64,000 bases of DNA from a virus (Duplodnaviria; Heunggongvirae; Uroviricota; Caudoviricetes): the IMG/VR virus record IMGVR_UViG_3300033153_011579; one strand, given 5' to 3'. Position numbers and translations under genes: made by a program. Below are positions 1 through 61,946 of this stretch, piece after piece; position 1 is the stretch's first letter, and every line of letters starts with the position of its first letter. The notes below the pieces were generated by a model. It was given only the letters and a program-made list of their open reading frames with translations. It was not told the origin of the DNA and did not search any database.

Positions 1-92
1 TCGCGGCGAGGGAGATGGAGCTCGAGCGCATCCGAGATCATTTATACAAGAACAGGGTCGAGGATTTCATCAGGGACGCCAATGGCGACTGA
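1..92 (+). CDS. 3' end of an upstream gene that runs in from outside the window (…MELERIRDHLYKNRVEDFIRDANGD*)
   Basis: Open frame from position 3 to TGA at 90-92; overlaps integrase start as ATGGCGACTGA. Confidence 0.35.
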   Translation, partial: AAREMELERIRDHLYKNRVEDFIRDANGD

Positions 93-43582: not shown

Positions 43583-43590
43583 GCTCAACG

Positions 43591-44929: not shown

Positions 44930-45008
44930 CCGAGCGATCCTACCTATTCACCACTCCCCGAGCCGACCGGCTCGGGGAGTTCCGAGGTGGTAGGATCAGG
45001 AGGCTGGT

Positions 45009-47945: not shown

Positions 47946-48112
47946 GAAAAAAGAAACTGTCGGCCGCGCAGAAGATGAAGCTCGCCATGCTCAACAAGGT
48001 GTTCGACATGGCGGACGCGTTCGTCAAGGGCGCGGGAGCTCCGCGCAAGAAGGCCACTAGTGGCCACCTCGCCGGCGGCGTGGCCCCAGCCCCGTGCGGG
48101 AAGTGCGACTGA
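47939..48112 (+). CDS. Small basic protein (57 aa), not in ORF track
   Basis: MVRKKKLSAAQKMKLAMLNKVFDMADAFVKG…; contains the GGCCACTAGTGGCC palindrome. Confidence 0.45.
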   Translation: MVRKKKLSAAQKMKLAMLNKVFDMADAFVKGAGAPRKKATSGHLAGGVAPAPCGKCD

Positions 48113-49047
48113 TGGAAGAAACGCCACAATTCCTCGACTGGAACAAGCCGATCCCGGTGGGGGTCTGGCGCGTGGCGATGTTCGTGTTCAACGACCGGGT
48201 GATGCAGGGCTATGGCGACGAGTATGTCGCCAACTACATCACGTACTGGGGGGCGAGGGTCGGTCTCGACGTCTCGAAAAACCATATCGTCAAGGGCGCG
48301 TACAAGGTTCAACTCGGCGCGGACCCAGCAACCCCGTGGTTCGTGTACGTGAGGAACACCGTGAAGGGCCTCACGTCGGTGGAAGTCTTCAAGACGACGA
48401 AGATGCTGGTGTGGTTCTTCGAGCAAGCCACCGAGGGCTGGATGGCCAACTACCTCGAGACGGCCCAGGGGCATCTCGGTGCGGGCATCAGGCAAGCCAA
48501 CCCACCGCAGTGGGCGACCTCCGATTCGTTTCTGCTCGCCGAGCGCTGGTACGGCGTGGCCACCATCTGGAAAGACGTCGCGCCCAACCCGAACTTGATA
48601 GAGGACAAGCTCCAAAAAATGGGGCTCGACATCTGGAGCGGTCCGGGGGGCGTCGTCTACAAGGACGACAATCCACGGGTCATGATCCTGTCGCTCTACA
48701 CGGGCGATAAGCCCCGGCGGGTGGGGGACATCCAAAAGGCGATTGGTGCCAAGGCTCTCGTCGTCGACCTCAACCATTTTGAAAAGAACTACACGAAGGA
48801 CAAGTCGGACAAGATCTACGAGGCGTCCGGGGCGATGCTCGAGACGATTGGCGATATGGCGGTTGGGATCTCCGAAGGTCTCGAGAACGCCACCGACCTC
48901 GTACCCACGGTGTTCGACATCCTCGGCTGGATCGCGAAGTGGGGACCGTTCATCGCGGTCGGCGCGGTCGCGCTCTACTTCGGCCCTCGGGTGCTGACGG
49001 CAGCCAAGAAGAGCCGAGGCGAGTGGAAGAAGGCGAGGGCGGCATGA
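48112..49047 (+). CDS. Virion-region protein with a C-terminal TM (311 aa)
   Basis: TGATG overlap; C-terminus GWIAKWGPFIAVGAVALYFG plus basic tail. Confidence 0.55.
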   Translation: MEETPQFLDWNKPIPVGVWRVAMFVFNDRVMQGYGDEYVANYITYWGARVGLDVSKNHIVKGAYKVQLGADPATPWFVYVRNTVKGLTSVEVFKTTKMLVWFFEQATEGWMANYLETAQGHLGAGIRQANPPQWATSDSFLLAERWYGVATIWKDVAPNPNLIEDKLQKMGLDIWSGPGGVVYKDDNPRVMILSLYTGDKPRRVGDIQKAIGAKALVVDLNHFEKNYTKDKSDKIYEASGAMLETIGDMAVGISEGLENATDLVPTVFDILGWIAKWGPFIAVGAVALYFGPRVLTAAKKSRGEWKKARAA

Positions 49048-49364
49048 CGAGCAAGCAAAAGATCATCGCGGGAGTCGCCGCGGGAGCCGCCGCCGCCCTG
49101 ATCACCGGTCTCGTCATCTGGCGCTCCCGGAAGAGGCTCGCGCTCGCCGCTCTTAAATACGAAGTCGATCCTTTATATAAGGCCCCCGCCGGCCTCAAGA
49201 CGCTGAAGCTCAGGAGCGTGCCGAAAGCCGCGGTGGTGGCCGTTAGAAAAATACACGGCAAGTTCAAGCTGCACCAGGCGTTCAGGGACACCGACGCCAT
49301 GTACTTGGTAGAAATCCACGAGGGGTTCGACCCGCTCGTGTTTCGAGTGAGGAGAAAGACATGA
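49044..49364 (+). CDS. N-terminally anchored small membrane protein (106 aa)
   Basis: IIAGVAAGAAAALITGLVIW TM; ATGA overlap. Confidence 0.5.
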   Translation: MTSKQKIIAGVAAGAAAALITGLVIWRSRKRLALAALKYEVDPLYKAPAGLKTLKLRSVPKAAVVAVRKIHGKFKLHQAFRDTDAMYLVEIHEGFDPLVFRVRRKT

Positions 49365-50419
49365 GAGGCAATCCCTACGATTGGATCAACCAGACTCGCG
49401 AGCACAAGGTGTTCGGAACTCGGCACTACCCGCTGATCGCCGGGCTCGCTGGGAAGTCCAACGGCTACCCGGCGTTCGCCATGCAGGTCCAGAGCCTGCC
49501 TGGTCTGCAGCGCAACCAGTACATCCGCGAGTGGCGGCAGTGGTTCGGGCGGCACGGCAAGAGCTGGGAGAAGATGGGCTGCCTCAAGGAAAACCGTCTC
49601 GGCCAGTACACCGACCGCTACAGGTGGACCGAGTGGAAGCCGGGCCTCGGTGCCTTCGGGTCGTTCGATACGAGCGTCGGGATGGGCTGGACCGCGATGG
49701 GGAACCCCGGCGCGAACTTCATCCCCAAGACGAACGTCATCCCGATCCCGGGGTACCCCGGCTGGGTACGCCAGATCGGCATGCTGAAGTACGACAAGGT
49801 CGGCGACGCGTGGCCCTGGTGTCTCGTGTACGCCAAGACCGACGGCTCGCAGTACGTCTGGTACTACAAGTACTCGGCGTCTCAGCCTCCGTTCCCCGGA
49901 GTCCCGCAGCCGACCGGCGGTGGCGACGACATCGGCACCGCGATCCCGAGCTCGACGAAGGCCGCGGTCACCGCGCTCCAGAAGGCGCTCAACCTCGCCG
50001 ACGCCAGGGACTCGCACAACAGGAAGCTGAACGAGGACGGCAACATCGGGCCCGACACGTGCTACGCGGCGTACCAGTTCAAGTCGGAGATGGGGCTCGG
50101 TACCGGAGCTGGGCTGCCCGCGGAGTTCTGGCTCTACCTCGGCCTGCCCGAGTCGTACGTCAAGTACAAGAACATCTGCTCGGCCTACTCGAGTGGAACG
50201 GAACCGAAAAAAACGACCAAACAACCGGGGCCGCTACCGGAGGAAGAGACTCCCGACCCGACGGTCAAGGCGGGCGACGCACCGCTCTCGATCTCGAAGG
50301 CGGGCCTCGGTGGCAAGAAGATGCTCCTGCTCGGCGGGGCCCTCCTGTTCGGGGGGCTCGTCGTGCTCGGTCGTAAGAAGAAGAAGCGCGGAAAACGCTC
50401 CAAGAAGAGGAGAAAATAA
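49361..50419 (+). CDS. Putative cell-wall hydrolase with a peptidoglycan-binding domain and C-terminal TM plus poly-basic tail
   Basis: PG_binding_1-like TAIPSSTKAAVTALQKALNLADARDSHNRKLNEDGNIGPDTCYAAYQFKSEMGL; C-terminus LLLGGALLFGGLVVLGRKKKKRGKRSKKRRK. Confidence 0.5.
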   Translation: MRGNPYDWINQTREHKVFGTRHYPLIAGLAGKSNGYPAFAMQVQSLPGLQRNQYIREWRQWFGRHGKSWEKMGCLKENRLGQYTDRYRWTEWKPGLGAFGSFDTSVGMGWTAMGNPGANFIPKTNVIPIPGYPGWVRQIGMLKYDKVGDAWPWCLVYAKTDGSQYVWYYKYSASQPPFPGVPQPTGGGDDIGTAIPSSTKAAVTALQKALNLADARDSHNRKLNEDGNIGPDTCYAAYQFKSEMGLGTGAGLPAEFWLYLGLPESYVKYKNICSAYSSGTEPKKTTKQPGPLPEEETPDPTVKAGDAPLSISKAGLGGKKMLLLGGALLFGGLVVLGRKKKKRGKRSKKRRK

Positions 50420-50988
50420 TGCCGTCCAAGAAGAGCAAGAAGAAGCGCGGGAAGAAAAAAGGGAGTCCGCTCCCACTCGTGATCGCCGCGGCGGCCATCG
50501 GTCTCGCCCTCTTCTTCGTGAGCAAGAAGGGGTCCGCCGGAGTGCCCAAGGACATCCCCAAGGGGAAGGGTCCCGGGAAGGCACCTCCCGCAGGAGCGCC
50601 GGCCAGCGCGCGCCCAGCTCCCGAGCTCACCGCGGCTCCGGACCCCGTGCCGACGGGAGAAGCGATCGACGACGCGCCGGCACCGACCAGTTCCGGCGAC
50701 ACCGGGCCGAGCGACCCGCTGAAGGCGGCCGGCTGGAAATGGGGCTTCATGGGATCTGTCGACCCCGACGAGGCATGGTCCGTCGGCGAGGTCATCAGCC
50801 CTTCACAGCTGCCGTTTGGTGCGGACAACCTGATCCAGGTGAGCCCGCTCGACACGGTCGAGGTGGCCTACTACCTCGCGTCGCAGGAGATGCTGACGCC
50901 TGGCTACTACGTGGTCGGGCAGATCAACTCGGAGGGCTTCTCCTTCGAGCCGCCCTTCTGGGGCATCATCCACGTCTGGCAGGAGTAG
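50419..50988 (+). CDS. Membrane-anchored Pro/Ala-rich protein (189 aa)
   Basis: N-terminal KKKRGKKKG plus TM. Confidence 0.5.
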   Translation: MPSKKSKKKRGKKKGSPLPLVIAAAAIGLALFFVSKKGSAGVPKDIPKGKGPGKAPPAGAPASARPAPELTAAPDPVPTGEAIDDAPAPTSSGDTGPSDPLKAAGWKWGFMGSVDPDEAWSVGEVISPSQLPFGADNLIQVSPLDTVEVAYYLASQEMLTPGYYVVGQINSEGFSFEPPFWGIIHVWQE

Positions 50989-50994
50989 GGAAAG

Positions 50995-51648
50995 ATGCCG
51001 TCGCCGCACAGCTATTACAGCTACCTGAAGATCTACAACGGGTCTGTGGGAGAATCGCCGCGCAAGGGGGCTTTTTACATCCCCAAGCATGGCGAGGCAC
51101 TCACGAGGATCGCCAAGCAGGCGTACGGGTTCGTGACCAGTACGCTCGCCGGCGTCCAGATGATCAACAGATCAGCATGGAATCGCAATGCGGCGAAGCA
51201 GGGTGCGTTCAAGTATCGCGTGACGTCGACTTCTTGCAAGTCGAAGATGGCCAACCCGGACAACGCGCTCACTACCCAGGGCTACAACAAGGGGGCCTGG
51301 CTCGCGCTGTGCCCGCCTTACCCGCTGTTCTGGATCCCGGCGAAGGCGGGCCAGATGCCGGAAGACCTCGCGCCTCCGGACGCCCCCCCCGGTCCCCCCG
51401 GAGCGACCTTCAAGGCACCGCCGAAGTCGCGTGGTGGAAGAGTGACGACGAAGAAGAGAGCCGGGGTCAAGACCACCAGGCAATCGCCCGGTCCGGGGAC
51501 GCAGTCGCCCTACTACCAGGGCCAGGGGACGTCGGGCTCGAGGAAGACGGCTCTCGCCGGCGTCGGGTCGCCGTGGATGCTGCTCGCCCTCGCGTTGCTC
51601 GCAGCCGGAGGATACGTATGGTACAGGCGGCGGAACAAGAAGAAGTAG
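50995..51648 (+). CDS. Protein with C-terminal TM and basic tail (217 aa)
   Basis: …WMLLALALLAAGGYVWYRRRNKKK. Confidence 0.5.
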   Translation: MPSPHSYYSYLKIYNGSVGESPRKGAFYIPKHGEALTRIAKQAYGFVTSTLAGVQMINRSAWNRNAAKQGAFKYRVTSTSCKSKMANPDNALTTQGYNKGAWLALCPPYPLFWIPAKAGQMPEDLAPPDAPPGPPGATFKAPPKSRGGRVTTKKRAGVKTTRQSPGPGTQSPYYQGQGTSGSRKTALAGVGSPWMLLALALLAAGGYVWYRRRNKKK

Positions 51649-51753
51649 AGACCAAGCGGTGCTCGATCTTCAAACCCTTCTCTGACCCTGTTTTTTCAAA
51701 GACAGTAACAGTCGTCCTTTGCCCTCGATGCGGGGCGACACCAGAGGTGATGC

Positions 51754-53571
51754 ATGGGTAACGAAAAGGGGCAGGAGCCCAAAACCCCTTCGAAGAGGAA
51801 GATGAACGACCGGAGGGTGACGCAGGCCCAGGTCGGCGTCGAGCAGCCGACCGACCGCGACGAGGGTTGGGACGTCTCGAAATTCCGGCAGATCATCTTT
51901 TCGATGCACCCGGTCGACCCGGACATCGACGACGTGGGTGCCGTCGGCTGGATCGCGTACGTCAAGGTCTGGCGCTTCAAGCTCGCCAACCGCTGGGGTA
52001 CCGGCAGCTCGGGAGGACAGTGGTACGCCGAGGACGAGCTCATCATCTCGATGGACGGCGATGTCGCGAACGGCGGCCCGATGGAGTACCAGCTGCCGAC
52101 GTGGAACGCCGAGAAGATGTTCTTCCAAGTGGTGCTCTCCGAGGGCGGTCCCGATACGTGGCAAGCCGCGCAGACCATCTCCGGGCTCGTCCCGCAGTCG
52201 TGCGAGTGCGAAGCGGACGTCGGCAGTATCGGTGGCGGCGGTGGGTCCGGTGGAATCGTCGTCTCGAACCTGTTCGATCTGATGGCCCACAACGACTACA
52301 CGTACAGCTCGCTTCGTGGCGATTTCGTCGCCACCAGGATTGCCGCGAACTCCATCCTGGTCAGCGGGCTCGACTTCGCGGTCGAAGAGCGGCAGATCCT
52401 GGCGATCGGCCTCAAGCGCTCGGGGACAACGTCCAGAACGCGCATGTGGTATCGCGACGACACCCTGCGTGTCGACTACACGCCAGGAACCTCGCTCATC
52501 GTGCACGCTGGCTTCACCAGCGACGCCCTGGACGAGGTGATCGTCTTCCTCGAGGGACCGTCCAAGGTGGACGACCCCACGAACCGAGCTCGACGCAACA
52601 AGACCGTCAACCCCGACCCGAAGCATGTCGCGACCGACGGGATTTTTCTCGACATCACGAAAGCCGAGCAGGCCGACGACGATTATTTCCCGTTCATGAT
52701 GAACCAGGACGGCTACCACTGGCTGTCGACGATGATCACCCTGACCGAGGACACCGTCGTGACGCTCGAGGCGACAAACGACCTCGCAGCGGACGGTGCC
52801 GAGGAATGGTACGACGTCACCGAGGAGGTGCTCGGCGTCGCCTCGGTCACCACGGCGAACGACGACCAGGCCTTCCCACCGCAGTGCTGGGTCGGCTGGC
52901 GACGGATGCGCTGGGTGGTCGGTGAGACCGGCTCTGGCGGTACCTGCAAGCTCTACATGCTGAGATCGGCCTATGGCAACCACTGGGTGCCCGTCGCCCG
53001 TGAGGGCCTCCCAGCGCTCCATGGCGGCCTCCCGGTGATGGGCGAAGCTCGAGCTGTCCAGGCCCCGGCCATCGCCGCGCTGTCCGCTGGGAAGTTCGTC
53101 ACGAACCTCTTCAAGGAGCTCGTCGGAGCAGCCTTCGACTGGGCCGTCGGAGCAGACCGCGGAGAAGAGGTCGACCCCGTCGACACGCGGGACTACACGA
53201 ACGTCATGGCCGAAGTCACCGGCCAAGGGGATGGTGATTTTTACTACTACCTCGACATGGCCCACTTCACAAAAGTGGGCATCCAGATCGAGAACGTCGA
53301 TGGAATAGCCGGCGACAACACCTACACGATCCATGGCTCGGAGCAGGACGACGGTACTGCACCGAACGCCGTTATCTACCAGGACATCACGCAGTTCGGG
53401 TGTGACAACATGAGAGCAGCCAACGCCGCGAACTACACGGCGGACGTCCTGTTGCAACTGAACGCCGCCGGGCTCTCGTACAAGTGGATCATGGTTCATG
53501 TCGAGCGCGCCAATGATGGCGCAAACACCGACGGCGAGTGGACCATCCTCGCCCGTCCGCTCTACCACTAG
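51754..53571 (+). CDS. Large putative spike/receptor-binding protein (605 aa)
   Basis: Largest late ORF, Gly-rich linker SIGGGGGSGGIV, beta-rich; no NTPase motif. Confidence 0.6.
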   Translation: MGNEKGQEPKTPSKRKMNDRRVTQAQVGVEQPTDRDEGWDVSKFRQIIFSMHPVDPDIDDVGAVGWIAYVKVWRFKLANRWGTGSSGGQWYAEDELIISMDGDVANGGPMEYQLPTWNAEKMFFQVVLSEGGPDTWQAAQTISGLVPQSCECEADVGSIGGGGGSGGIVVSNLFDLMAHNDYTYSSLRGDFVATRIAANSILVSGLDFAVEERQILAIGLKRSGTTSRTRMWYRDDTLRVDYTPGTSLIVHAGFTSDALDEVIVFLEGPSKVDDPTNRARRNKTVNPDPKHVATDGIFLDITKAEQADDDYFPFMMNQDGYHWLSTMITLTEDTVVTLEATNDLAADGAEEWYDVTEEVLGVASVTTANDDQAFPPQCWVGWRRMRWVVGETGSGGTCKLYMLRSAYGNHWVPVAREGLPALHGGLPVMGEARAVQAPAIAALSAGKFVTNLFKELVGAAFDWAVGADRGEEVDPVDTRDYTNVMAEVTGQGDGDFYYYLDMAHFTKVGIQIENVDGIAGDNTYTIHGSEQDDGTAPNAVIYQDITQFGCDNMRAANAANYTADVLLQLNAAGLSYKWIMVHVERANDGANTDGEWTILARPLYH

Positions 53572-53582
53572 GAGATTTTCAC

Positions 53583-53858
53583 GTGGGAATAGACATCAAA
53601 GCAGAACTCAGCAAGCTGGCGCTCGCCAACCTGGTCGATATTCCGCAATCTTCCGGAAAACCCCCAGGGGTGCCGGACATCACCAAAGCCAAGGCGCTCG
53701 CCGTTCTCAACAAGCTCCGCGAGATCGCCAAGCACAACGGCTACCGTGGGATCGCCAAGGCCGAAAAAATCCCCGAAAAATGGGTCAGGAAGCTCGACCT
53801 GCTGCGCAAGGAAGTCATCGCCGAGAAGCAACCCAAAGAGATCGAGGATCTCGAATAG
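53583..53858 (+). CDS. Hypothetical protein (91 aa, GTG start)
   Basis: SD GGAGA 7 nt upstream of GTG. Confidence 0.45.
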   Translation: MGIDIKAELSKLALANLVDIPQSSGKPPGVPDITKAKALAVLNKLREIAKHNGYRGIAKAEKIPEKWVRKLDLLRKEVIAEKQPKEIEDLE

Positions 53859-54467
53859 ATGCCCGCGTACTTCCACATCATCGACCCTAACGGCCACATC
53901 GTACGGATCGATGCGTCGACCCACGCCCAAACCACGATCGAGTACGAGCACCACGAAATCCATGGCTCCAGCTCGTTCACCTGCTGGTACGAGCAAGAGG
54001 TCTCGGACGATGGCGACCAATCGATCATCGCCTTCAAGACTCCCGCTGGAGCCAAGTGGGGCCACCTCACGTTTGCCGCCTCAGCCTCGCAGCCGGCGGA
54101 GGCCTGGATCCTCGAAGCCCCCGACGTCGTCGACAACACAGGAGCGCCGCTCGCAATCTGGAACAGAAACCGGGCCATCATCCTACCCAGCATAATGATC
54201 GACACCTCCCAGAACCCGGACGTCGTCGACCAGGCCACCTTCTTCACCGAGGTGACGATGGGTAACGTCACGGCTGGCGACGAGATCGACCACCAGCACC
54301 TCGAAGCGGGTCGGGGACCCCGTGCGATCGGCGGAGTATCCCGAGGCTCTCAGGAGTGGATACTCAAGCCCGAGGTCCACTATGCATTCATCGTCGAGTC
54401 CCTGAACGACGACACCAACGTCCACAACCTCCAGGTCAACTGGTACGAGCATACGGATAGAAACTGA
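53859..54467 (+). CDS. Hypothetical beta-rich protein (202 aa)
   Basis: ORF. Confidence 0.55.
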   Translation: MPAYFHIIDPNGHIVRIDASTHAQTTIEYEHHEIHGSSSFTCWYEQEVSDDGDQSIIAFKTPAGAKWGHLTFAASASQPAEAWILEAPDVVDNTGAPLAIWNRNRAIILPSIMIDTSQNPDVVDQATFFTEVTMGNVTAGDEIDHQHLEAGRGPRAIGGVSRGSQEWILKPEVHYAFIVESLNDDTNVHNLQVNWYEHTDRN

Positions 54468-55105: not shown

Positions 55106-55794
55106 TGGGCCTCTATAACTGGCGCAACAAGCTCCTCCTGGACCTGCCGATGTTGATGCGGGACCACGACCCCGGCAACACCCTGTCGGTCAACAGAGGG
55201 CGTGCGGGAGCGGCCCTCGATGCAACATGGACCGCTGGAGTCACTGCACCGACGAAGCTCGGATACCGGAGGGGGTACTCGTTCGATGGTGCCGACATTA
55301 TGTTGGTTGCGGATGATGCGTCAATCCGATTCGGTACTGGTGATTTCACTGTATTATCAACTTTTGGCACTACGCAGAGTGCGAATCCTGCCAGGACTAT
55401 CGTAGCGAAAGGCACTGTCGGCGTTGATGAGTGGTTGTTTTATCGCTTTGCCGCTGGAGGTATTCAAAGTATTAGATTTTACGGTGACGGTGGTGCACTC
55501 AACGTAACAGCTGTTTGGACTGGGCGGCATCAGGGCGTCAACACAGGCGTGTTTGTGCGTAGCGGTGATGACGGGTTTCTCTACATCGGAGGGCAGCAAG
55601 TAGCGACACAAGCAGGCATCGCAGCGGTTGATCTGAGCACGACAAAAGATGCTTCAATTGGATCTGCTAATGAGGGTGGTGAACGTTACTGGGTCGACGA
55701 CATCTACCACGTCGGCATGGCCAACTTCGCGCTGAGCCCCCATCAGGTCGCCCAGTACCACAGCACGATGATGCGGAGGCTCCATGCGCTTTGA
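55105..55794 (+). CDS. ConA/LamG-like domain protein, paralogue 2
   Basis: …DDIYHVGMANFALSPHQVAQYH; TGATG overlap. Confidence 0.5.
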   Translation: MGLYNWRNKLLLDLPMLMRDHDPGNTLSVNRGRAGAALDATWTAGVTAPTKLGYRRGYSFDGADIMLVADDASIRFGTGDFTVLSTFGTTQSANPARTIVAKGTVGVDEWLFYRFAAGGIQSIRFYGDGGALNVTAVWTGRHQGVNTGVFVRSGDDGFLYIGGQQVATQAGIAAVDLSTTKDASIGSANEGGERYWVDDIYHVGMANFALSPHQVAQYHSTMMRRLHAL

Positions 55795-55875
55795 CTTGCA
55801 AAGTAGTAGCGACATGAGGAGCTACCGGTCAGTCCCCGCAGGGGACAAGACTATCGGAACACCCGAGGTGTTACG

Positions 55876-56532
55876 ATGAGCTTCCTCCAGCAGTCGATCC
55901 GGGACCAGTCACTCGTCGAGTGGGTCGACCTGCGTCGTTGGAACGCCAACTTCAACGACCTCTCCGGTCAAGGGGCCGTCGGGACGCCCTCCGACGTCTG
56001 GTACGGTGGTGGTGGAGTGCAGTTCGCCAACGACGACGGCTACATCAGCGTGCCTGACGTCGCCGCACACCGAAACGACGCCCTGTCGATCGTAGTCGTC
56101 GGTGAGTTCGACAGGCTCGAGCGTCCCGCCGCCAACCCAGGATTCCTGCTCACCAGGATGGACGGCGGTGGAAACATCGAGTGGCAGTTCGGGATCGACG
56201 ACACTCCGCAACTGTTCTTCGTCGATACCAACGCGTCGGCGACAGTCACAAGAGCAGTCGACTACCGCGGCATGCGCTCGCTTGGGCTGACCACCACGAA
56301 TGGCGGTACGCCGATTGGTTACGGTCAAGGGCTCTCGCTCGGTAATTTCTCCGGTGCGGCAGACGTCGATGCAAACGTCGATATGCTGCTGTACCTCGGG
56401 AACAACGACGACTTCGACCGGTCGATGCTCAACCCCATGCACGCCGCCCTGCTCTTCAATCGACCTCTCGACGAAGAAGAGATGGCCGTCCTCCACGGCG
56501 AGCTCATGGCGCTCCCCGGAGGTGAGCACTGA
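55876..56532 (+). CDS. ConA/LamG-like domain protein, paralogue 3
   Basis: …LFNRPLDEEEMAVLHGEL. Confidence 0.5.
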   Translation: MSFLQQSIRDQSLVEWVDLRRWNANFNDLSGQGAVGTPSDVWYGGGGVQFANDDGYISVPDVAAHRNDALSIVVVGEFDRLERPAANPGFLLTRMDGGGNIEWQFGIDDTPQLFFVDTNASATVTRAVDYRGMRSLGLTTTNGGTPIGYGQGLSLGNFSGAADVDANVDMLLYLGNNDDFDRSMLNPMHAALLFNRPLDEEEMAVLHGELMALPGGEH

Positions 56533-57872
56533 TGCCGCGTGCATACGCCACACGACGAGTTCTCCTCGTGCCCGACCTCGCCGACCCCGCCCTCTACGGA
56601 GCGTGGACCATGGTGCCACGAGGTGGCCTCCTTGTTGACCACACTCCCCAAGGGAACGACGGCGTCCCAGGCGCGTCTTCCGGAGTCGAGCACACAATCC
56701 TCGGCCCGATGCGGAGGTATTGGCCGAATAGCGGAGCTGGCGGGTCCGTGATCGGTGCTCCTGGAGACTTCGCTCTGGGCGATCTGACATGCTGCTTTTG
56801 GACGCGGATGGATATTGGAGCTGCGCCTGATGCCTATGGGTTTGGCTACCGATTGAACAACAACGATCAGTGGTGGCTTCGCGTTCGTGCTGGGTTGGTC
56901 TCTATTTTCGACGACATCGATAATGCTGGAGCAAATCTGTACCAGACACTGGTTCAGGCGGGCAGGCTGGTTCACGTTGTTGGTGTGATGGATAATCTTG
57001 AAAATCTTCTGTACCTTGACAACGTCTTGGTGGGCTCGGGCACCTTTGCCTCTGACAACTGGGCGAGTTTTGCTGGGCAGTTGTATCACGGTGCGAGGAC
57101 CACTGGCGCTGATCCAGTTCAAGGCATCGTCTCACCCGCTCTCGTCCACAACGCAGCCAAGGACCAGGCCTGGGTCACCAAGGACTACATGAAGGGCGCT
57201 TCGGCCGTCCAGTTCAAAACCGACTGGGGCGTCAAACAGAGCGTCGGGAACGAAGTCGCCAACGCTCGCGTCGGCCACAATAGCTCGCCCTTCGAGATCG
57301 TCAGCGGTACCTGGCAGATGACCATGGACACCATCGACGGTGTCGACGTCAAGGTGATGGAGTGTATCGCTGCTGGAGTGGTCGGGATGCCGACCTCGCT
57401 GTTCGAGGCGACCCCAACCGAGGCGGCATTTGGGACGTGGGAGTGGTGGTTGACCAAGGTCGACGGCAGTTCACCTTATGTGATGTTCGCTGGATCTGAC
57501 CTTGCTGCTATAGCCGGTGGGACACAGAGCGGATACGACATTATTATCAACTCTGCCGAGCGTGTCTTTTTTCAAGAGTGTGCTGCTGGTGCTCCGGTAA
57601 GCTCTTGGTGGACTGACATCGATTATGTGACACCCGGATCATGGAACAAGTTCAGAGTCACTAGGAGATATGACGGCCAGTTCACCGTATACATGGATGA
57701 CGTTTTAATCAACGCGACTGGCGGTGTGGAGTCTAACCCCTTCACCGATCTGACCACCACGACAGCCAACTACGTCGTGCTCGAATTCGACGCCGGAGAT
57801 AAATTTGGGTATGCCGACCGTCGCGGCTCACACAGTTTCGTAAAATACCTCGGGGTCATCCCCCCAGGGTAG
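56532..57872 (+). CDS. ConA/LamG-like domain protein, paralogue 4 (446 aa)
   Basis: Jelly-roll-like composition, tandem with paralogues. Confidence 0.5.
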   Translation: MPRAYATRRVLLVPDLADPALYGAWTMVPRGGLLVDHTPQGNDGVPGASSGVEHTILGPMRRYWPNSGAGGSVIGAPGDFALGDLTCCFWTRMDIGAAPDAYGFGYRLNNNDQWWLRVRAGLVSIFDDIDNAGANLYQTLVQAGRLVHVVGVMDNLENLLYLDNVLVGSGTFASDNWASFAGQLYHGARTTGADPVQGIVSPALVHNAAKDQAWVTKDYMKGASAVQFKTDWGVKQSVGNEVANARVGHNSSPFEIVSGTWQMTMDTIDGVDVKVMECIAAGVVGMPTSLFEATPTEAAFGTWEWWLTKVDGSSPYVMFAGSDLAAIAGGTQSGYDIIINSAERVFFQECAAGAPVSSWWTDIDYVTPGSWNKFRVTRRYDGQFTVYMDDVLINATGGVESNPFTDLTTTTANYVVLEFDAGDKFGYADRRGSHSFVKYLGVIPPG

Positions 57873-57884
57873 GAGGATAGAAGG

Positions 57885-58640
57885 ATGGGCAACCAGTATT
57901 ACGGACGATCGTGGAACGAGCTGATGGAGCTCTGCACGGCCGAGTATCGGTTCTACCGAAACTCGCAGCGGAACTTCCGCCCGGCGAACATCGGTGCGGG
58001 AACCGGTGTCGCCGACATGGGCGAGTACCTGATCGACGCCGACAACGTGCCCAAGCAGTCGGTGTGTCTCGGGATGCCGGCCTTCTGTGTCGACTACCCC
58101 ACGGCCCACTTCAACTTCCCCCAGAACTTCGACGATACGATGGGGGCCGAGGACGCCTTTACCCTGGAGTACCTCGGTGTCGTCCAGGACCGCCTGATAC
58201 CAGATAGGTACATGGCCCTGGTCGGCGAAGATGGCGCGGCGACTCCCTACGTCGGGATCCGCGATGACAACCTGGTCGAGATGGATTTCGGCACGCAGCA
58301 GGTCTCGAACGGTCTCTGCGAGTGGTGGAAAGACGGTCTGATCCACTTCGTCGTCTCTCGGGCGGCTGGTGCAGCGCCCGAAACGGAAATTTACATCAAC
58401 GGAGTGCGGATCGACTTCGTCAGTCGTCTGGCTGGCGCGGGGGCCTTCACCGACGCCGCCGGCCAGATCTTCAACCACGCCGACAACAACGGAGACCAGC
58501 ACCCGTGGTGGGGTCACCACTTCATGCTCCGGCAATATTCGGCGGCGTTGAGGAAGTCCGAGGTCATCGAGATGTTCCAGGACGCGCAGCGCCTGATCCC
58601 GCATCACCTGATGCACATCCCGGTCGACTCGGCGGAGTAA
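57885..58640 (+). CDS. ConA/LamG-like domain protein, paralogue 5
   Basis: …RQYSAALRKSEVIEMFQDAQRLIP. Confidence 0.5.
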   Translation: MGNQYYGRSWNELMELCTAEYRFYRNSQRNFRPANIGAGTGVADMGEYLIDADNVPKQSVCLGMPAFCVDYPTAHFNFPQNFDDTMGAEDAFTLEYLGVVQDRLIPDRYMALVGEDGAATPYVGIRDDNLVEMDFGTQQVSNGLCEWWKDGLIHFVVSRAAGAAPETEIYINGVRIDFVSRLAGAGAFTDAAGQIFNHADNNGDQHPWWGHHFMLRQYSAALRKSEVIEMFQDAQRLIPHHLMHIPVDSAE

Positions 58641-58663
58641 GAACGAAGCGGTAGGAGGATAAC

Positions 58664-59158
58664 GTGGGAGACAGCGACACACTGATCGAGATCGCCAAGA
58701 GCCTGGGAGAGGTCAATGGCTCGATGGCCGGCGTCCATCGCGAGATGAAAGGTGTTCGTGGAGAGGTTCGAGAGCTGCGGGACGAGGTCAAGGAGATGCC
58801 CGACCAGTGGAGGGCGGAAGCTGCGGACATCGTCGAAAACTGCAGAGAGCGACGGGACGAGCTCGCCGAGGCGAAAGAGCGTGGGGAGTCCACCGCGGTC
58901 ACAAACCTCGCCAAGGAACAGGCAAGATCTCGGAGGCCGTCCACGCCTCCCCGGAAGCGCGACAGTTGGATCGACAGCGTCGTCAAGACGGCGATGAAGC
59001 CGGTCATCACTACGCTGGTGGTGGTCTGCATGGCCGCCGGCGCGGGGTTCGCCGTGTCCCACTGTAGCAACGGCAAAACGGTCGAGCCGGCTGATCTGAA
59101 GGCGCTCGAGGATAATTTGCTCGAGCGGTTCAAGAAGGTGAACGGAGGCGAGCGATGA
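58664..59158 (+). CDS. Coiled-coil protein with C-terminal TM (GTG start)
   Basis: SD GGTAGGAGGATAAC-GTG. Confidence 0.5.
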   Translation: MGDSDTLIEIAKSLGEVNGSMAGVHREMKGVRGEVRELRDEVKEMPDQWRAEAADIVENCRERRDELAEAKERGESTAVTNLAKEQARSRRPSTPPRKRDSWIDSVVKTAMKPVITTLVVVCMAAGAGFAVSHCSNGKTVEPADLKALEDNLLERFKKVNGGER

Positions 59159-59682
59159 GTAACCTCGACCCAGCTCTGTGCAAGTGGGAGCTGGTCAAGA
59201 AGTGGGACTATCAAGACGTCACCATGGAGCGGGCCTTTGCAGAAGGCGGCGGCCTGGTGGTCGGTGGCAAGCTCCGGGGCCACGCTGCTTCGGGATTCGT
59301 CCTGAGCGACCTCGGCGTCCCCTCTGAGCTGATCGACGAGATGGCCGATAAGTTCGGGAAGACGTGGGAGGTCCTCCTGTTCGTGACGTCTCCCCATCCG
59401 GTGGGTGCCGGGAACTTCACGCTTGCCGAAGAGGTGTATGCCCTGTGGGCCTACAAGGCGACCTGGCCGCCGCCGATGCACTCGTCGCTGGACTACGTCC
59501 CCGACGCGGTGCTGAGGAACGCGCGGCTGTTCAAGCTGCAGTGCCCGACGGAGGCCGCGCCCTGGCTCCAGAAGAAGAAAGAGCATTCGATGAAGCCCCG
59601 GAGCTCTATCTGGGTTCCCGTAATTGGCGGTTTTTGCCTGGTGGGAACCTGGTTGCTCGCGCGAAAAAGGAAGAAGCGGTGA
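59155..59682 (+). CDS. Protein with C-terminal TM and basic tail (175 aa)
   Basis: …IWVPVIGGFCLVGTWLLARKRKKR. Confidence 0.5.
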   Translation: MSNLDPALCKWELVKKWDYQDVTMERAFAEGGGLVVGGKLRGHAASGFVLSDLGVPSELIDEMADKFGKTWEVLLFVTSPHPVGAGNFTLAEEVYALWAYKATWPPPMHSSLDYVPDAVLRNARLFKLQCPTEAAPWLQKKKEHSMKPRSSIWVPVIGGFCLVGTWLLARKRKKR

Positions 59683-59712
59683 GCCACCGCTGGCAATATA
59701 GGAGGCCCACTG

Positions 59713-61014
59713 GTGGGTGACTGGGACAAAAAGTGCCGCGATCCTAAAACTGCAAAACTGGCTAGCCAGTGTGCGCGGCGTGGGTACCTGTCCGATAACA
59801 TAGGCGGCCTAGGCCGCTTCGGGACGGTGAAGACGTACGCCGCGCCAGAGCGAGGGCCTCTGGAGCGCGTGAAGTCCGCTGAGAACATGGGGCCGACCCG
59901 GTCTCAGCTGTTCACATGGACGACGAAGGTCCACGCGCCGAGCTGGAGCTTGCCCGCGGTTGGCACCTGTCCGGGGGCGTGTGGAGTCGACAAGAAGTCC
60001 ATCAGAGACACGAAGAAAATACCGAAAAAATGCCTCGGGTGCTACGCGTACAACGCGGGGAAGTACGGGACCGAAGAGGTGAAGAACGCTCAGCACCGGC
60101 GGTGGGCGTGGTTCGATTCTCAGCCCAAGAAGGAAGTCGTCAAGGGGTTGGTCGAGGCGATCAAGGTCTCCGGGCGAGACGATTGCACGACCAGCCGCGC
60201 GAAGAAGTCCGACCCGTGGACGTGCAAGAAGGACGAGGGCGGCCGGAAGGTATGCGCTCGCGAGGATCCGGTGACGTGCAAGACGACGGTGAGCGGGCTG
60301 CCGACACACTTCCGACTATTCGACTCGGGAGATTTCCACGACGCGAGAGCGGTATGGATCTGGCGGAGCGTCGCGAGAAAACTCCCGGACATCAAGTTCT
60401 GGGCTCCGACGACCGCGTGGATCGACCACAAGTACGAGCATCCCGAGGACAAGCAGAAGGAGGTCGACCTCCACCTCGAGCTCGGCCGGCTCGCGAAGAT
60501 GAAGAACGTTACTCTGCGGCCGAGCGCGTTGAGTCTCGACCGCGCAGCTCCCGACGTCGAGATCGGCGGCCGGAAGGTCGCGGGGAGCGGGATCGTCTCG
60601 TGGGAGGCGATGAAGACGACGGCCAAATGTCCGTGGGAGGACAAGCCGACGAAAAACAAGTGCAAGCGCACGTACCGGCACCTGCCGCAGGCGAAGACGC
60701 TGTCGGGCAAACCGGTCATTTACGACCCGGACGACGATTCGACCAGGCCGGAGAAGGTAAAGGTCAACGGGAAGGTCCACCGGCTCTGTCCGGGTGACTG
60801 TGCGAAGTGCATGGCGTGCTGGAACAAGCGAGAGCGGGTGGTGTACGTGCAGCACGGTCCTGACGCGAAGGCGAAGGAAAGGATGCTCGAGCGGGGCGAG
60901 GACATGCTCGAGTACATGGAATTGCTGTTCCCGCAATACGCGGACCTCGGGCCGGACAGTGCGGACCACCCGGCGCAACGGTTTTTGGCGGCACAGCGAA
61001 AGAAGGCCCACTAG
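59713..61014 (+). CDS. Cys-rich basic protein (433 aa, GTG start inside a CCCACTGGTGGG element)
   Basis: SD ATAGGAGG; multiple CxxC pairs; the stop TAG lies inside the CCCACTAGTGGG palindrome. Confidence 0.55.
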   Translation: MGDWDKKCRDPKTAKLASQCARRGYLSDNIGGLGRFGTVKTYAAPERGPLERVKSAENMGPTRSQLFTWTTKVHAPSWSLPAVGTCPGACGVDKKSIRDTKKIPKKCLGCYAYNAGKYGTEEVKNAQHRRWAWFDSQPKKEVVKGLVEAIKVSGRDDCTTSRAKKSDPWTCKKDEGGRKVCAREDPVTCKTTVSGLPTHFRLFDSGDFHDARAVWIWRSVARKLPDIKFWAPTTAWIDHKYEHPEDKQKEVDLHLELGRLAKMKNVTLRPSALSLDRAAPDVEIGGRKVAGSGIVSWEAMKTTAKCPWEDKPTKNKCKRTYRHLPQAKTLSGKPVIYDPDDDSTRPEKVKVNGKVHRLCPGDCAKCMACWNKRERVVYVQHGPDAKAKERMLERGEDMLEYMELLFPQYADLGPDSADHPAQRFLAAQRKKAH

Positions 61015-61039
61015 TGGGCTATTTTAAAGGAGGGCACTA

Positions 61040-61303
61040 GTGGCCAAACGAAGACCATGCAAAGGAGTAAGCGTCCGGCACGAGTTCAGCGGGCCGGTCG
61101 TCAGCAAAGGATATTCCACGGCGGAGGTAAGGTTCAAGAATGTAGGAAGGGACTTCCGAAACGAATTCGAGATCAAGTGCAAATATACCGACCCCAAGTC
61201 AAAAGTGAAAAAGTTAGTTGAGCGCATCAAGGTAGATGCGCAGCAAGAGGCAACCGACCGCGCCTGTGCACTGGTCAAGAGTCGTTGTAAGCGGAAGAAA
61301 TAA
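61040..61303 (+). CDS. Small basic protein (87 aa, GTG start inside a CACTAGTG element)
   Basis: SD AAAGGAGGG. Confidence 0.5.
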   Translation: MAKRRPCKGVSVRHEFSGPVVSKGYSTAEVRFKNVGRDFRNEFEIKCKYTDPKSKVKKLVERIKVDAQQEATDRACALVKSRCKRKK

Positions 61304-61304
61304 G

Positions 61305-61946
61305 ATGCCCAAGAGTCCAGGACCAGCGACGTTGTTCATGCTGCTGACGGGTGGAGCTTTGCTCCTGGCCGGCGCGGTCCGCGCATTCTCCGGTGAGCAA
61401 AAAAGCCCACTAGTGGGCCCGAGGTATGTGGTGGCGGTGGGCGACTCTCTGACGGCGAACGGGTCGTATTGTCGGACGCTCGAGCGGATGCTTCCTGTCG
61501 GGTCGAGGGTGGACTGCGTCGGGTACGTTGGCGAGGGGGCGCAGGCGATCTCCACGAAGGTAGGGAAGGCGATCCTCGCCGGAGCAGACGACGTGATCGT
61601 GTTGGCCGGCGTGAACGACCTGGCGTCGGGTCGCGGGGTGCAGGGGACGGTCTCCGGGCTCGACAAGATTTACCAGAAGGGGAGGGCATCGGGCGCGCGG
61701 GTGATCGCAGTCCACCTGACTCCGTGGGCGGGGCATTCGAAAGGGTCGCAGCTACAGACCGAGACGTGGAAGGTGAACGCGTGGATGGCGAAATACCCAT
61801 CGGTCGAGATGGTGGTCGAGACGCAGGAGCTCGGTGATGCCGGCGTCCTCTACCCGGAGTACGGAGCTGGCGACGGGTTACATCTGAGCGAGGCGGGCCA
61901 GGACAAGCTGGCGGAGATCATCTTTAGCCAGGTGTACGGAGGATAG
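61305..61946 (+). CDS. SGNH/GDSL-family hydrolase with N-terminal signal/TM
   Basis: Blocks VAVGDSLT, GVNDL, DGLHLSEAG. Confidence 0.6.
   Translation: MPKSPGPATLFMLLTGGALLLAGAVRAFSGEQKSPLVGPRYVVAVGDSLTANGSYCRTLERMLPVGSRVDCVGYVGEGAQAISTKVGKAILAGADDVIVLAGVNDLASGRGVQGTVSGLDKIYQKGRASGARVIAVHLTPWAGHSKGSQLQTETWKVNAWMAKYPSVEMVVETQELGDAGVLYPEYGAGDGLHLSEAGQDKLAEIIFSQVYGG

What the first reader, a model, noticed from the sequence alone, without database searches (positions are those of the whole stretch)
48052..61417. CCCACTAGTGGG-type palindromes overlapping gene start and stop codons in the late region
- Perfect 14-bp palindromes at 48052, 61006 and 61404, with near-copies at 59706 and 61033.
- At 61006 the palindrome contains the TAG stop of the 433-aa gene.
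- At 59706 and 61033 it contains the GTG starts of the next genes.
- Possible roles: late-operator sites, translational-control hairpins sequestering start codons, or recombination boundaries.
Basis: seen in the sequence. Interest (0 to 1): 0.5.

Follow-up and report, generated by a model that had tools for sequence, protein, structure and literature searches.

The report
CTAG-centred 14-bp palindrome family in phage
The reported palindromes are real and belong to a larger, statistically striking set: about a fifth of all CTAG sites in this uncultivated phage lie at the centre of perfect 14-bp palindromes whose arms differ in sequence but stay complementary, which points to small selected hairpin elements whose function is not known.

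Summary
Perfect 14-bp palindromes lie at 48052-48065, 61006-61019 and 61405-61418. Near-copies lie at 59706-59717 and 61032-45. The stop and start overlaps are correct.

The CACTAGTG copies are a subgroup of a wider class. The window holds only 37 CTAG. Seven of them centre perfect N5-CTAG-N5' palindromes; the others are at 92, 17926, 59757 and 59804. There is also one 12-bp copy (17840) and one copy with a single mismatch (61032). About 0.04-0.2 would be expected. None of the other 255 four-base loops shows this.

The arms differ between copies but stay Watson-Crick complementary. They are built from rare codons in poorly constrained protein segments, without indels. Relatives with 48-66% identical GP88 have none. 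No Rfam family matches, and the motif does not look like a host REP or uptake sequence.

Best reading (confidence about 0.35): these are selected stem-loops of 5 bp with a CTAG apex, read as a structure by one lineage-specific factor. At the GP88 / mini-ORF / ORF87 junction they place UAGUG stop-start overlaps just after Shine-Dalgarno (SD) runs, which would couple translation. The function is inferred, not shown.

Rivals are a single-stranded DNA hairpin or cruciform site, a duplex operator, and a by-product of repair or gene conversion.

The parts
92..105 (.). AGCAG-CTAG-CTGCT, a perfect 14-bp palindrome covering codons 4-8 (EQLAAF) of the weak tyrosine-recombinase-like ORF 82-969.
17840..17851 (.). 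CCCG-CTAG-CGGG, a 12-bp palindrome with a flanking G..T pair. It lies inside the minus-strand response-regulator-like ORF 17597-18598 and encodes P-A-S-G at the end of an acidic linker.
17926..17939 (.). GGGCG-CTAG-CGCCC, a perfect 14-bp palindrome in the same ORF. It encodes G-A-S-A-P at the start of the acidic linker, 87 bp from the 17840 copy.
48052..48065 (.). GGCCA-CTAG-TGGCC, a perfect 14-bp palindrome inside the 57-aa ORF 47939-48112 (..RKKATSGH..), 47 nt before the ATG at 48112. The 20-nt unit 48047-48066 is 90% identical to 61027-61046.
   Evidence: (D13)
59706..59717 (+). CCCA-CTGG-TGGG, a degenerate relative of the 61006 copy (11/12). It lies directly after AGGAGG and contains the GTG start (59713) of the GP88 gene.
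   Evidence: (D12)
59757..59770 (.). ACTGG-CTAG-CCAGT, a perfect 14-bp palindrome covering GP88 codons 15-20 (KLASQC) in the variable N-terminus. There is no indel against the closest homologue.
59804..59817 (.). GCGGC-CTAG-GCCGC, a perfect 14-bp palindrome covering GP88 codons 31-35 (GGLGR). It uses the rare codon CTA where the closest homologue has CTG.
61006..61019 (.). GCCCA-CTAG-TGGGC, a perfect 14-bp palindrome. It holds the TAG stop of GP88 (61012-14) and the overlapping GTG (61014). AAGAAGG precedes it and TATTTT follows it.
61014..61040 (+). An 8-codon mini-ORF (VGYFKGGH*). It starts in the first palindrome and stops at the TAG in the second.
   Evidence: its translation is an inference
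61032..61045 (.). GGGCA-CTAG-TGGCC, a 14-mer with one arm mismatch, made of two different half-sites that both fit the G-S-S-C-R pattern. It lies after GGAGG and contains the GTG start (61040) of ORF87.
61405..61418 (.). GCCCA-CTAG-TGGGC, a perfect 14-bp palindrome in the linker between the N-terminal membrane anchor and the GDSL domain of the lipase ORF 61305-61946. Its GTG at 61413 is in frame.
61005..61025 (.). Left arm of a 21-nt inverted repeat (20/21) whose partner is 61399-61419. The two arms flank ORF87 and the 5' end of the lipase gene.
   Evidence: I15
61399..61419 (.). Right arm of the 21-nt inverted repeat. On the minus strand it reads as a hairpin followed by TTTTTT.
59713..61014 (+). 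GP88-family gene (Pfam PF17338), 433 aa, cysteine-rich, function unknown.
61040..61303 (+). ORF87, a basic 87-aa protein with GC 0.51 and GC3 0.61, against 0.82-0.84 in its neighbours. It looks like a moron and sits in a slot that varies between relatives.
61305..61946 (+). GDSL lipase with an N-terminal hydrophobic anchor that relatives also have.
47939..48112 (+). 57-aa basic ORF (GC3 0.84) that carries the 48052 palindrome.

Best explanation
The reported palindromes belong to a family of 9-10 short dyad elements specific to this phage lineage. Each has an invariant CTAG flanked by 5-bp, G+C-rich arms. The arm sequence differs from copy to copy but stays perfectly complementary, and a G..T pair often closes the stem.

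They are kept by selection on the nucleotide sequence, against codon preference. They sit in parts of proteins that tolerate change, or at gene junctions.

I think they act as folded stem-loops (5-6 bp stem, CUAG/CTAG apex) that one trans-acting factor recognises by shape and loop. I do not think they act as classical duplex operators.

In the late operon the folding strand is the mRNA. Three copies place a UAG stop and/or a GUG start inside the hairpin, directly 3' of an SD run. The two neighbouring copies at 61006 and 61032 can also pair with each other. A ribosome that finishes GP88 in the first loop would then open the start of the mini-ORF and of ORF87, which is termination-reinitiation coupling.

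The CACTAGTG subgroup has 4-5 copies that share 20-21 nt including flanks. It most likely arose by copying of this junction cassette.

Shown: the family exists, its statistics, arm covariation, rare-codon cost, gene context and lineage restriction. Inferred: folding in vivo, the acting strand, the factor, and the coupling.
For: Enrichment.
- 7 of 37 CTAG centre perfect 14-bp palindromes, plus one 12-bp copy and one copy with a single mismatch. The 15 other palindromic tetramers (31-693 occurrences each) give 0-1.
- Among all 4-nt loops with perfect stems of at least 5 bp, CTAG gives 7/37 against a background of 92/64000.
- Loops one mismatch away from CTAG are not enriched.

Codon-aware null.
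- Synonymous-codon shuffles gave a mean of 0.22 such palindromes and a maximum of 1 in 300, against 7 observed. CTAG itself was 52 +/- 4.8 expected against 37 observed.

Arm covariation.
- There are seven different arm sequences (AGCAG, GGGCG, CCCG, GGCCA, ACTGG, GCGGC, GCCCA), all Watson-Crick paired.

Cost in codons.
- CTA makes up 21 of 830 Leu codons, and 3 of those are in palindromes.
- The window has GGC GGC CTA where the closest homologue has GGG GGG CTG, with no indels.

Stem closure and stability.
- The closing pair is G..T in 5 of 8 copies (plus 59706), against 7-11% background.
- Hairpin free energies are -4 to -12 kcal/mol.

Junction anatomy.
- SD run, hairpin and UAGUG overlaps are as described.
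- The 61006/61032 pair folds into an 11-12 bp helix of -17.5 kcal/mol.

Copying within the subgroup.
- Units of 20-21 nt are shared at 90-95% identity (D12, D13, I15).

Lineage restriction.
- None of the 25 CTAG in 46 kb of relatives is palindromic.
Against: - No arm contains a G.U pair (0 of about 40 pairs), and the loop is itself palindromic. Both fit a DNA-level dyad better than an RNA hairpin.
- The G..T closure follows the + strand (6:1), not the sense strand (4:3). The two copies in the minus-strand gene would fold better in antisense.
- Folding energies of the surrounding mRNA are ordinary: z-scores from -0.5 to +0.8. The GP88 and ORF87 initiation regions rank 18 and 41 of 67 for structure.
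- Seven copies lie inside ORFs, where ribosomes would melt them.
- 6-7 of 10 half-sites fit G-S-S-C-R, so some sequence-specific reading is possible.
- No candidate binding protein was identified. Nearly all ORFs lack Pfam or PHROG hits.
- No relative carries the elements, so conservation and compensatory change across genomes could not be tested.
Confidence: 0.35

Rival explanations
1. DNA-level structural element. The palindromes act as single-stranded DNA hairpins or extruded cruciforms with a CTAG apex, mostly on the + strand. A structure-specific enzyme would recognise them, for example for nicking, priming, recombination or hairpin-promoter use.
For: - They are perfect dyads including the centre, with no G.T pair inside the arms.
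- The closing G..T lies on the + strand in 6 of 7 asymmetric copies, whatever the gene orientation.
- Positions ignore reading frame and gene strand.
- Copies cluster in groups 27-90 bp apart.
Against: - A 5-bp DNA stem with a 4-nt loop is only marginally stable.
- No HUH nuclease, primase, giant virion RNA polymerase or recombinase was recognised, apart from a weak integrase-like ORF.
- The 6:1 strand bias is not significant on its own (one-sided p about 0.06).
- Few tailed dsDNA phages are known to use such elements.
Confidence: 0.22
2. Duplex operator, roadblock or centromere-like sites. A homodimeric DNA-binding protein would read a G-S-S-C-R-CTAG-Y-G-S-S-C consensus. This is the first reader's 'late operator' idea, analogous to stoperators or the dispersed N15 centromere sites.
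For: - The centre is palindromic, as a symmetric dimer requires.
- 6-7 of 10 half-sites fit G-S-S-C-R.
- The 61032 copy combines two different half-sites that both conform.
- Sites occur in pairs or triples, as in cooperative operators.
- The subgroup shares a 10-bp core, CCACTAGTGG.
Against: - Three perfect palindromes (92, 59757, 59804) have arms unrelated to that consensus yet are fully symmetric, against about 0.04 expected by chance. Duplex reading cannot select for complementarity as such.
- Most sites are intragenic.
- No adjacent + strand promoter-like sites were found.
- No HTH, RHH or ParB domain was found in about 70 ORFs scanned.
Confidence: 0.15
3. Non-adaptive by-product. A CTAG-triggered repair, template-switch or gene-conversion process would perfect quasi-palindromes or copy a junction cassette. 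The products would survive only where proteins tolerate them.
For: - All intragenic copies lie in N- or C-termini or inter-domain linkers.
- Subgroup copies share flanks in both orientations, which suggests copying.
- Close relatives lack the elements.
- No function could be shown.
Against: - Palindromes with other centres show no general excess: 5 observed against about 5.7 expected once the CTAG copies are removed.
- No known mechanism is CTAG-specific and produces arms of exactly 5 bp without indels.
- Rare codons are retained in a genome with GC3 of about 0.85.
Confidence: 0.2
4. Host-derived REP, uptake or terminator-type repeat, or plain chance.
For: - In other genomes the same 14-mer is often the tip of longer terminator or REP-like hairpins. 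One example is the Rhodanobacter locus L115, GTAGGAGCCCGCTAGCGGGC...GCCCACTAGTGGGCTCCTAC.
- The 61006 copy is followed by TATTTT.
Against: - The 14-mer is single-copy in all 27 IMG/VR contigs that hold it. It appears as scattered single hits across many phyla in the genome scan, which was cut off at 120 rows.
- The copies here have no GTAG head, lie mostly in ORFs, and are only 14-16 nt long.
- Only 1-2 of 10 have a T-run.
- Chance is excluded.
Confidence: 0.04

Closest known systems
Stoperators of Cluster A mycobacteriophages (PMC9283540, PMC6550527)
   Same: They are short motifs specific to one phage group, dispersed through the genome. They often lie at gene boundaries and overlap stop or start codons.
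   Different: Stoperators are 13-bp asymmetric sites of one conserved sequence, present in 20 or more copies in one orientation, and bound by a monomeric repressor. Here there are 9-10 copies with dyad symmetry and variable arms, and most lie inside genes.
Start-associated sequences (SAS/ESAS) of Cluster K mycobacteriophages (PMC3203893)
   Same: A conserved unit includes the SD region immediately upstream of start codons, and ESAS add inverted repeats. Their function is also unknown and may involve a phage or host factor.
   Different: SAS are 13-bp non-palindromic sequences that always lie at starts and are conserved across subclusters. Here only 3 of 10 copies are at starts, the start codon lies inside the palindrome, and relatives lack them.
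Protein-bound RNA hairpins with a fixed loop and free stem (lambda boxB/N; MS2 coat-protein operator, which contains the replicase start). This comparison rests on my own knowledge.
   Same: Both have a 5-7 bp stem of variable sequence, an invariant short loop, and a fixed geometry. The MS2 hairpin contains a start codon and couples or represses translation.
   Different: Those hairpins occur once or twice per genome, in untranslated or junction positions, and their loops are not palindromic. No binding protein is identified here, and there are no G.U pairs.
REP/BIME elements and their RAYT transposases (PMC8266576)
   Same: Both are families of short G+C-rich palindromes whose stems covary. 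A Rhodanobacter REP pair even has the same CTAG-apex 14-mer.
   Different: REPs are chromosomal, intergenic and high-copy, 20-40 nt long, with a conserved GTAG head. None of these features is met here.
Hairpin promoters of phage N4 virion RNA polymerase. This comparison rests on my own knowledge.
   Same: They are small DNA hairpins (5-7 bp stem, short loop) recognised as a structure on one strand.
   Different: N4 has three sites at one genome end with a 3-nt loop, and they need a polymerase of about 3,500 aa. The largest ORF in this window is 681 aa.

Membership tests
Stoperator (Cluster A mycobacteriophage) | One conserved asymmetric 13-bp sequence | tested here: not met
   The sites are dyad-symmetric and have seven different arm sequences.
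Stoperator (Cluster A mycobacteriophage) | Many copies, in one orientation relative to transcription, in short intergenic gaps | tested here: not met
   There are 9-10 copies, 7 of them intragenic, in genes of both orientations.
Stoperator (Cluster A mycobacteriophage) | Bound by the immunity repressor | not testable with these tools
   No repressor was identified, and binding needs EMSA.
Start-associated sequence (Cluster K) | Conserved unit immediately upstream of annotated start codons | tested here: inconclusive
   Three copies (59706, 61006, 61032) lie 6-7 nt after an SD run and contain a GTG. The 48052 copy has the same SD plus GTG, but opens a non-coding frame with GC3 of 0.42.
Start-associated sequence (Cluster K) | Conserved at orthologous genes in related phages | tested here: not met
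   Relatives L028, L029 and L030 have no such motif at the GP88 or lipase junctions.
REP/BIME | Conserved GTAG-type head next to the palindrome | tested here: not met
   No GTAG or CTAC flanks any copy. Two copies have ATAGG.
REP/BIME | High copy number in the host chromosome, in intergenic positions | tested here: inconclusive
   The host is unknown. The 14-mer gives scattered single hits over many phyla in a truncated scan. The copies here are mostly in ORFs.
Intrinsic terminator | G+C-rich hairpin directly followed by a U-tract on the transcribed strand | tested here: not met
   Only 61006 (TATTTT) and weakly 92 (TTTT) qualify in the sense direction. The 61405 copy qualifies only in antisense.
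Dimeric-repressor operator | Conserved half-site sequence | tested here: inconclusive
   6-7 of 10 copies fit G-S-S-C-R-CT. Three perfect palindromes do not.
Dimeric-repressor operator | Position at or within promoters | tested here: not met
   No + strand sigma-70-like site lies near any late-region copy. Other promoter types are not covered by that scan.
Loop-specific RNA hairpin (boxB / MS2-operator type) | Invariant loop, stem of fixed length with covarying sequence | tested here: met
   The CTAG loop is invariant. The stem is exactly 5 Watson-Crick pairs in 7 copies, with seven arm sequences. Loop variants are not enriched.
Loop-specific RNA hairpin (boxB / MS2-operator type) | Lies on the transcribed strand and tolerates G.U pairs | tested here: inconclusive
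   A palindrome folds on either strand. There are no G.U pairs inside the arms, and the closing G..U is on the sense strand in 4 copies and on the antisense strand in 3.
Loop-specific RNA hairpin (boxB / MS2-operator type) | A cognate RNA-binding protein | not testable with these tools
   No candidate was found; most ORFs have no family hits.
Any Rfam RNA family | Match to a curated covariance model | tested here: not met
   There were no hits at gathering score over the whole window, and none at E<=1 in 59500-61600.

The most novel reading that the evidence does not exclude
This would be a previously undescribed kind of phage cis-element: a nucleic-acid hairpin defined only by a CTAG apex and a 5-bp stem of any complementary sequence, closed by a G.T pair. 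It would be written into coding sequence at the cost of rare codons and read by a lineage-specific, structure-specific factor. That factor could be a strand-specific nickase or priming protein on DNA, or a loop-specific RNA-binding protein or RNase. The element would mark or regulate a handful of genes: an integrase-like gene, a response regulator, GP88, ORF87 and the lipase.
Probability: 0.25. Interest if true: 0.8.

Novelty: new variant of a known kind. Interest (0 to 1): 0.5.

Why it matters
If the elements are functional, they show selection writing a structure-only signal into protein-coding DNA of a phage made almost entirely of genes with no known relatives. The signal has a fixed 4-base apex and free but complementary arms. 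That gives a compact handle for finding the factor that reads it, because arm-swap and loop mutants are easy to design. It also gives a simple genome-scan statistic, the fraction of a given tetranucleotide that sits at the centre of perfect palindromes, which can be run on any virus to find similar hidden signals. If the elements are a repair by-product, they would point to a CTAG-specific DNA process in this phage or its host.

Tried and rejected
Searches for relatives.
- Megablast and tblastn against 50,697 GenBank phages found no match for the DNA, the 681-aa ORF or GP88.
- An IMG/VR protein scan with GP88 found nothing.
- A JGI metagenome scan with the GP88 alignment gave only 5 short, distant contigs.
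- The source contig could not be fetched. It is implied by P0021, which is 100% identical and sits on an 82,351-bp JGI contig.
- As a result, no conservation or covariation test across strains was possible.

Ideas considered and rejected.
- A -1 frameshift extension at 47945. A separate 57-aa ORF with an ATGGTGA overlap and GC3 of 0.84 explains the region.
- The segment between 61006 and 61405 as a simple insertion. The lipase N-terminal anchor is also present in relatives, and the low-GC block ends at 61303.
- An invertible-segment switch. No invertase was found, and inversion would leave the lipase domain without an SD.

GP88 function.
- A PDB sequence-profile search gave nothing.

Other checks.
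- The PurA-like ORF is closest to bacterial PurA in the PDB, so a PurZ (Z-genome) assignment is not established.
- Literature searches for CTAG-centred palindromes in phage genomes and for PF17338 found nothing relevant.
- Resemblances to T7-type promoters, the DasR dre box, the Mnt operator and the TrpR operator were recalled from memory. They were dropped because spacing or sequence do not match and the arms vary.

Full report
**Observation.** GGCCACTAGTGGCC lies at 48052-48065. GCCCACTAGTGGGC lies at 61006-61019 and 61405-61418. GGGCACTAGTGGCC lies at 61032-61045 and has one arm mismatch. CCCACTGGTGGG lies at 59706-59717 and has a CTGG centre. The 8-mer CACTAGTG occurs 4 times against 0.41 expected, and none of 100 shuffles reached that.

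The TAG at 61012-14 is the stop of the 433-aa ORF 59713-61014. The GTG at 59713 follows AGGAGG by 7 nt and starts that ORF. The GTG at 61040 follows GGAGG by 6 nt and starts an 87-aa ORF. Between them, the GTG at 61014 overlaps the stop (TAGTG) and opens an 8-codon mini-ORF. That mini-ORF ends at the TAG of the next palindrome, which again overlaps a GTG.

The other two copies are intragenic. The 48052 copy lies in a 57-aa ORF (47939-48112, GC3 0.84), 47 nt before the next gene. The 61405 copy lies in the linker between the membrane anchor and the catalytic domain of a GDSL lipase.

**The genome.** The window has 59.5% G+C and no tRNA genes. Its genes run + from 0 to 16.5 kb, minus from 16.5 to 36 kb, and + from 36 to 64 kb. 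It has no DNA or protein match among GenBank phages. Almost none of about 70 ORFs hits Pfam or PHROGs.

The exceptions are:
- GP88 (PF17338) and the GDSL lipase;
- two Laminin_G_3 proteins;
- a Cpn10-like ORF, a thioredoxin, an SLT domain, an SPFH domain and an Lcl_C domain;
- a receiver-domain protein and a PurA-like protein;
- a weak integrase-like ORF.

GP88 has relatives at 48-66% identity on metagenomic contigs of up to 80 kb. The local order is GP88, then 0-3 unrelated small ORFs, then the lipase. A 100% identical copy of the receiver-domain protein lies on an 82,351-bp JGI contig. That contig is presumably the source, but it could not be retrieved.

**The wider family.** A list of all perfect palindromes showed that the CACTAGTG copies are part of a larger class. 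The window has only 37 CTAG. A dinucleotide null expects 121 and a codon-aware null expects 52 +/- 4.8.

Seven of the 37 lie at the centre of perfect palindromes that are all exactly 14 bp long:
- 92 AGCAG|CTAG|CTGCT
- 17926 GGGCG|CTAG|CGCCC
- 48052 GGCCA|CTAG|TGGCC
- 59757 ACTGG|CTAG|CCAGT
- 59804 GCGGC|CTAG|GCCGC
- 61006 and 61405 GCCCA|CTAG|TGGGC

An eighth copy (17840, CCCG|CTAG|CGGG) is 12 bp, and a ninth (61032) has one mismatch. The remaining 28 CTAG have essentially no flanking complementarity, so the distribution is bimodal.

The 15 other palindromic tetramers occur 31-693 times each and give 0-1 such palindromes. Among all 256 four-base loops with perfect stems of at least 5 bp, CTAG stands alone: 7/37 against 92/64000 overall. 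Loops one mismatch away from CTAG are at background level.

Shuffling synonymous codons within 68 ORFs gave a mean of 0.22 such palindromes and never more than 1 in 300 trials. With the CTAG copies removed, palindromes of 14 bp or more are not in excess: 5 observed against about 5.7 expected.

**Evidence for selection on the nucleotide sequence.**
- The arms differ between copies but remain Watson-Crick complementary, with no G.T pair inside any arm.
- The intragenic copies use all three reading frames and need rare codons. CTA makes up 21 of 830 Leu codons, and GCT, ACT and AGT are also rare.
- In GP88 the two internal copies lie in the variable N-terminus, with no indel against the closest homologue. 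Where both proteins have Gly-Gly-Leu, the homologue uses GGG GGG CTG and the window uses GGC GGC CTA.
- Every intragenic copy lies in a protein segment likely to be under weak constraint. These are an N-terminus (92), the two ends of an acidic linker (17840 and 17926, both encoding Ala-Ser as GCT AGC), a C-terminal tail (48052), a variable N-terminal region (59757, 59804) and an anchor-domain linker (61405).

**Finer features.**
- The base pair just outside the perfect arms is G..T on the + strand in 5 of 8 copies, and also at 59706. Other hairpins show this in 7-11% of cases. The 61405 copy has the mirror image, A..C. No copy extends to a 16-bp perfect palindrome.
- As a result, the + strand RNA fold is the more stable one in 9 of 10 copies, with free energies of -4 to -12 kcal/mol.
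- 6-7 of 10 half-sites fit G-S-S-C-R. The imperfect 61032 copy combines two different half-sites that both fit.
- The CACTAGTG subgroup shares more than the palindrome. 48047-48066 and 61027-61046 are 90% identical as direct repeats. 61005-61025 and 61399-61419 are a 21-nt inverted repeat with 20/21 matches. This suggests copying of a junction cassette made of a purine-rich SD run plus the palindrome. At 48052 that cassette's GTG opens only a non-coding frame (GC3 0.42), so the SD-plus-GTG arrangement is part of the unit rather than proof of a start site.
- ORF87 has 51% G+C and GC3 of 0.61, against 0.82-0.84 in its neighbours. The drop in G+C begins at the 61006/61032 pair and ends at 61303. 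In relatives this slot holds other, unrelated ORFs or none.

**What the elements are not.**
- They match no Rfam family.
- The exact 14-mer is single-copy in the 27 IMG/VR contigs that hold it. In the genome collection it appears as scattered single hits across many phyla. That scan was cut off at 120 rows. There it is usually the tip of a longer terminator or REP-like hairpin. The copies here are 14-16 nt, lack a GTAG head and lie mostly in ORFs.
- Only 61006 (TATTTT) and weakly 92 have a downstream T-run in the sense direction.
- Relatives with 48-66% identical GP88 have 25 CTAG in 46 kb and none is palindromic. This includes the orthologous GP88 start, stop and lipase positions.

**Mechanism.** Complementarity kept across seven different arm sequences, a fixed stem length and an invariant four-base centre all point to an element that works by intrastrand pairing. 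A duplex-reading dimer has no means of selecting for complementarity as such. I therefore rank a hairpin-type element above an operator.

Whether it folds in RNA or in DNA is unresolved. RNA is favoured by prior experience with phages and by the anatomy of the three junction copies: an SD run, then an arm that serves as the spacer, then UAGUG. The 61006 and 61032 copies can also pair with each other in an 11-12 bp helix of -17.5 kcal/mol, which a ribosome terminating GP88 would open.

DNA is favoured by three points. No arm contains a G.U pair. The loop itself is palindromic. The closing G..T tracks the + strand (6:1) rather than the sense strand (4:3).

The translational effect cannot be large by itself. 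Local folding z-scores are near zero, and the GP88 and ORF87 initiation regions rank 18 and 41 of 67 for structure.

A non-adaptive origin remains possible, through CTAG-triggered repair or gene conversion that survives only where proteins tolerate it. However, no known process gives CTAG-specific, indel-free arms of exactly 5 bp.

**Comparison with known systems.** The closest named analogues are stoperators (PMC9283540, PMC6550527) and the SAS/ESAS of Cluster K phages (PMC3203893). These are also phage-specific short motifs at gene boundaries. Both are single conserved sequences rather than covarying dyads, and both are conserved among relatives, so membership fails.

In form the elements resemble loop-specific RNA hairpins such as boxB or the MS2 operator, or small DNA hairpins such as N4 promoters. 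Those comparisons are recalled from memory and were not tested. A search of the paper library found no description of CTAG-centred palindrome families in phages.

**Verdict.** I rate it a new variant of a known kind (phage-specific short dyad repeats) with moderate interest. The pattern is unusual and easy to test. It rests on one uncultivated genome with no close relatives, and no trans-acting factor has been identified.

Noticed in passing
window 18598-18635, 18862-18890, 19216-19250, 19422-19460 (minus strand): There are four copies of a conserved leader of about 35 nt, AGCCGGGTGGTTCCGG(C)CAGAAAGAGAGCGGAAA(A)ATG. It contains a GCCGG/CCGGC hairpin with a GUGGUU loop and a purine-rich run that ends at the ATG. 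Each copy lies directly upstream of one of four consecutive small minus-strand genes, including the receiver-domain gene. It looks like a start-associated regulatory cassette.
   Followed up: partly
window 26259-27368 (-): A 369-aa adenylosuccinate-synthetase-like ORF (Pfam E=1e-39) is shorter than bacterial PurA. This could indicate a PurZ-type enzyme and a 2-aminoadenine genome. However, its best PDB matches are ordinary bacterial PurA, so this is not established.
   Followed up: partly
window 17597-18598 (-): The phage encodes a protein with a response-regulator receiver domain, an acidic linker and an unassigned C-terminal part. A 100% identical protein (P0021) sits on an 82,351-bp JGI contig, presumably the source genome. 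That contig could not be fetched.
   Followed up: partly
window 44147-44159 and 44925-45008: A GGGGC-TAG-GCCCC hairpin holds the TAG stop of ORF 43444-44154 in its loop. A long imperfect inverted repeat (41-nt arms, 73% complementary) fills the gap between ORF 44219-44929 and ORF 45009-45911.
   Followed up: no
whole window (40 confident ORFs): TAG is the most used stop codon (17 TAG, 16 TGA, 7 TAA) in a genome with GC3 of about 0.85. CTAG is nevertheless depleted even against a codon-aware null (37 observed against 52).
   Followed up: partly
whole window: The 8-mers CGAGCTCG (29 copies), GCTCGAGC (18) and GGTCGACC (16) are far above composition expectation. This is probably a codon-pair effect of GAG/CTC/GTC/GAC-rich coding sequence, but that was not tested with a codon-aware null.
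   Followed up: no
window 59713-61014; alignment A2: GP88-family proteins carry many invariant Cys and His residues (for example C-x2-C-Y-A, F-D-S-G-D-F-H and C-x-G-D-C-x-K-C-x2-C-W). No solved-structure relative was found. The AlphaFold model gives only weak similarities to partial TIM-barrel/radical-SAM-like folds. This is a conserved phage protein of unknown function next to a membrane-anchored lipase.
   Followed up: partly
loci L036, L037, L046, L076, L078, L098, L125 (Woeseiaceae, Wenzhouxiangella, Thioalkalivibrio, Microbulbifer): In several gammaproteobacterial genomes the 14-mer GCCCACTAGTGGGC is joined to a conserved stretch of about 16 nt (CCGAAYTTWCCGCAYG or its complement). This suggests an unrelated chromosomal repeat family with the same CTAG-tipped hairpin.
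   Followed up: no
window 24058-24091: A strong hairpin, GTGAAGGGGG-CTAA-CCCCCTTTGT, has a perfect 7-bp core (AAGGGGG/CCCCCTT) and lies in a gap between ORFs. It is a likely terminator.
   Followed up: no
window 61949-62260 and 63446-63802: Two small ORFs begin with nearly the same sequence (MKKGTKK followed by a hydrophobic segment; the DNA repeat is 75% identical over 36 nt). They may be paralogous membrane proteins downstream of the lipase, which would fit a lysis-type cluster.
   Followed up: no
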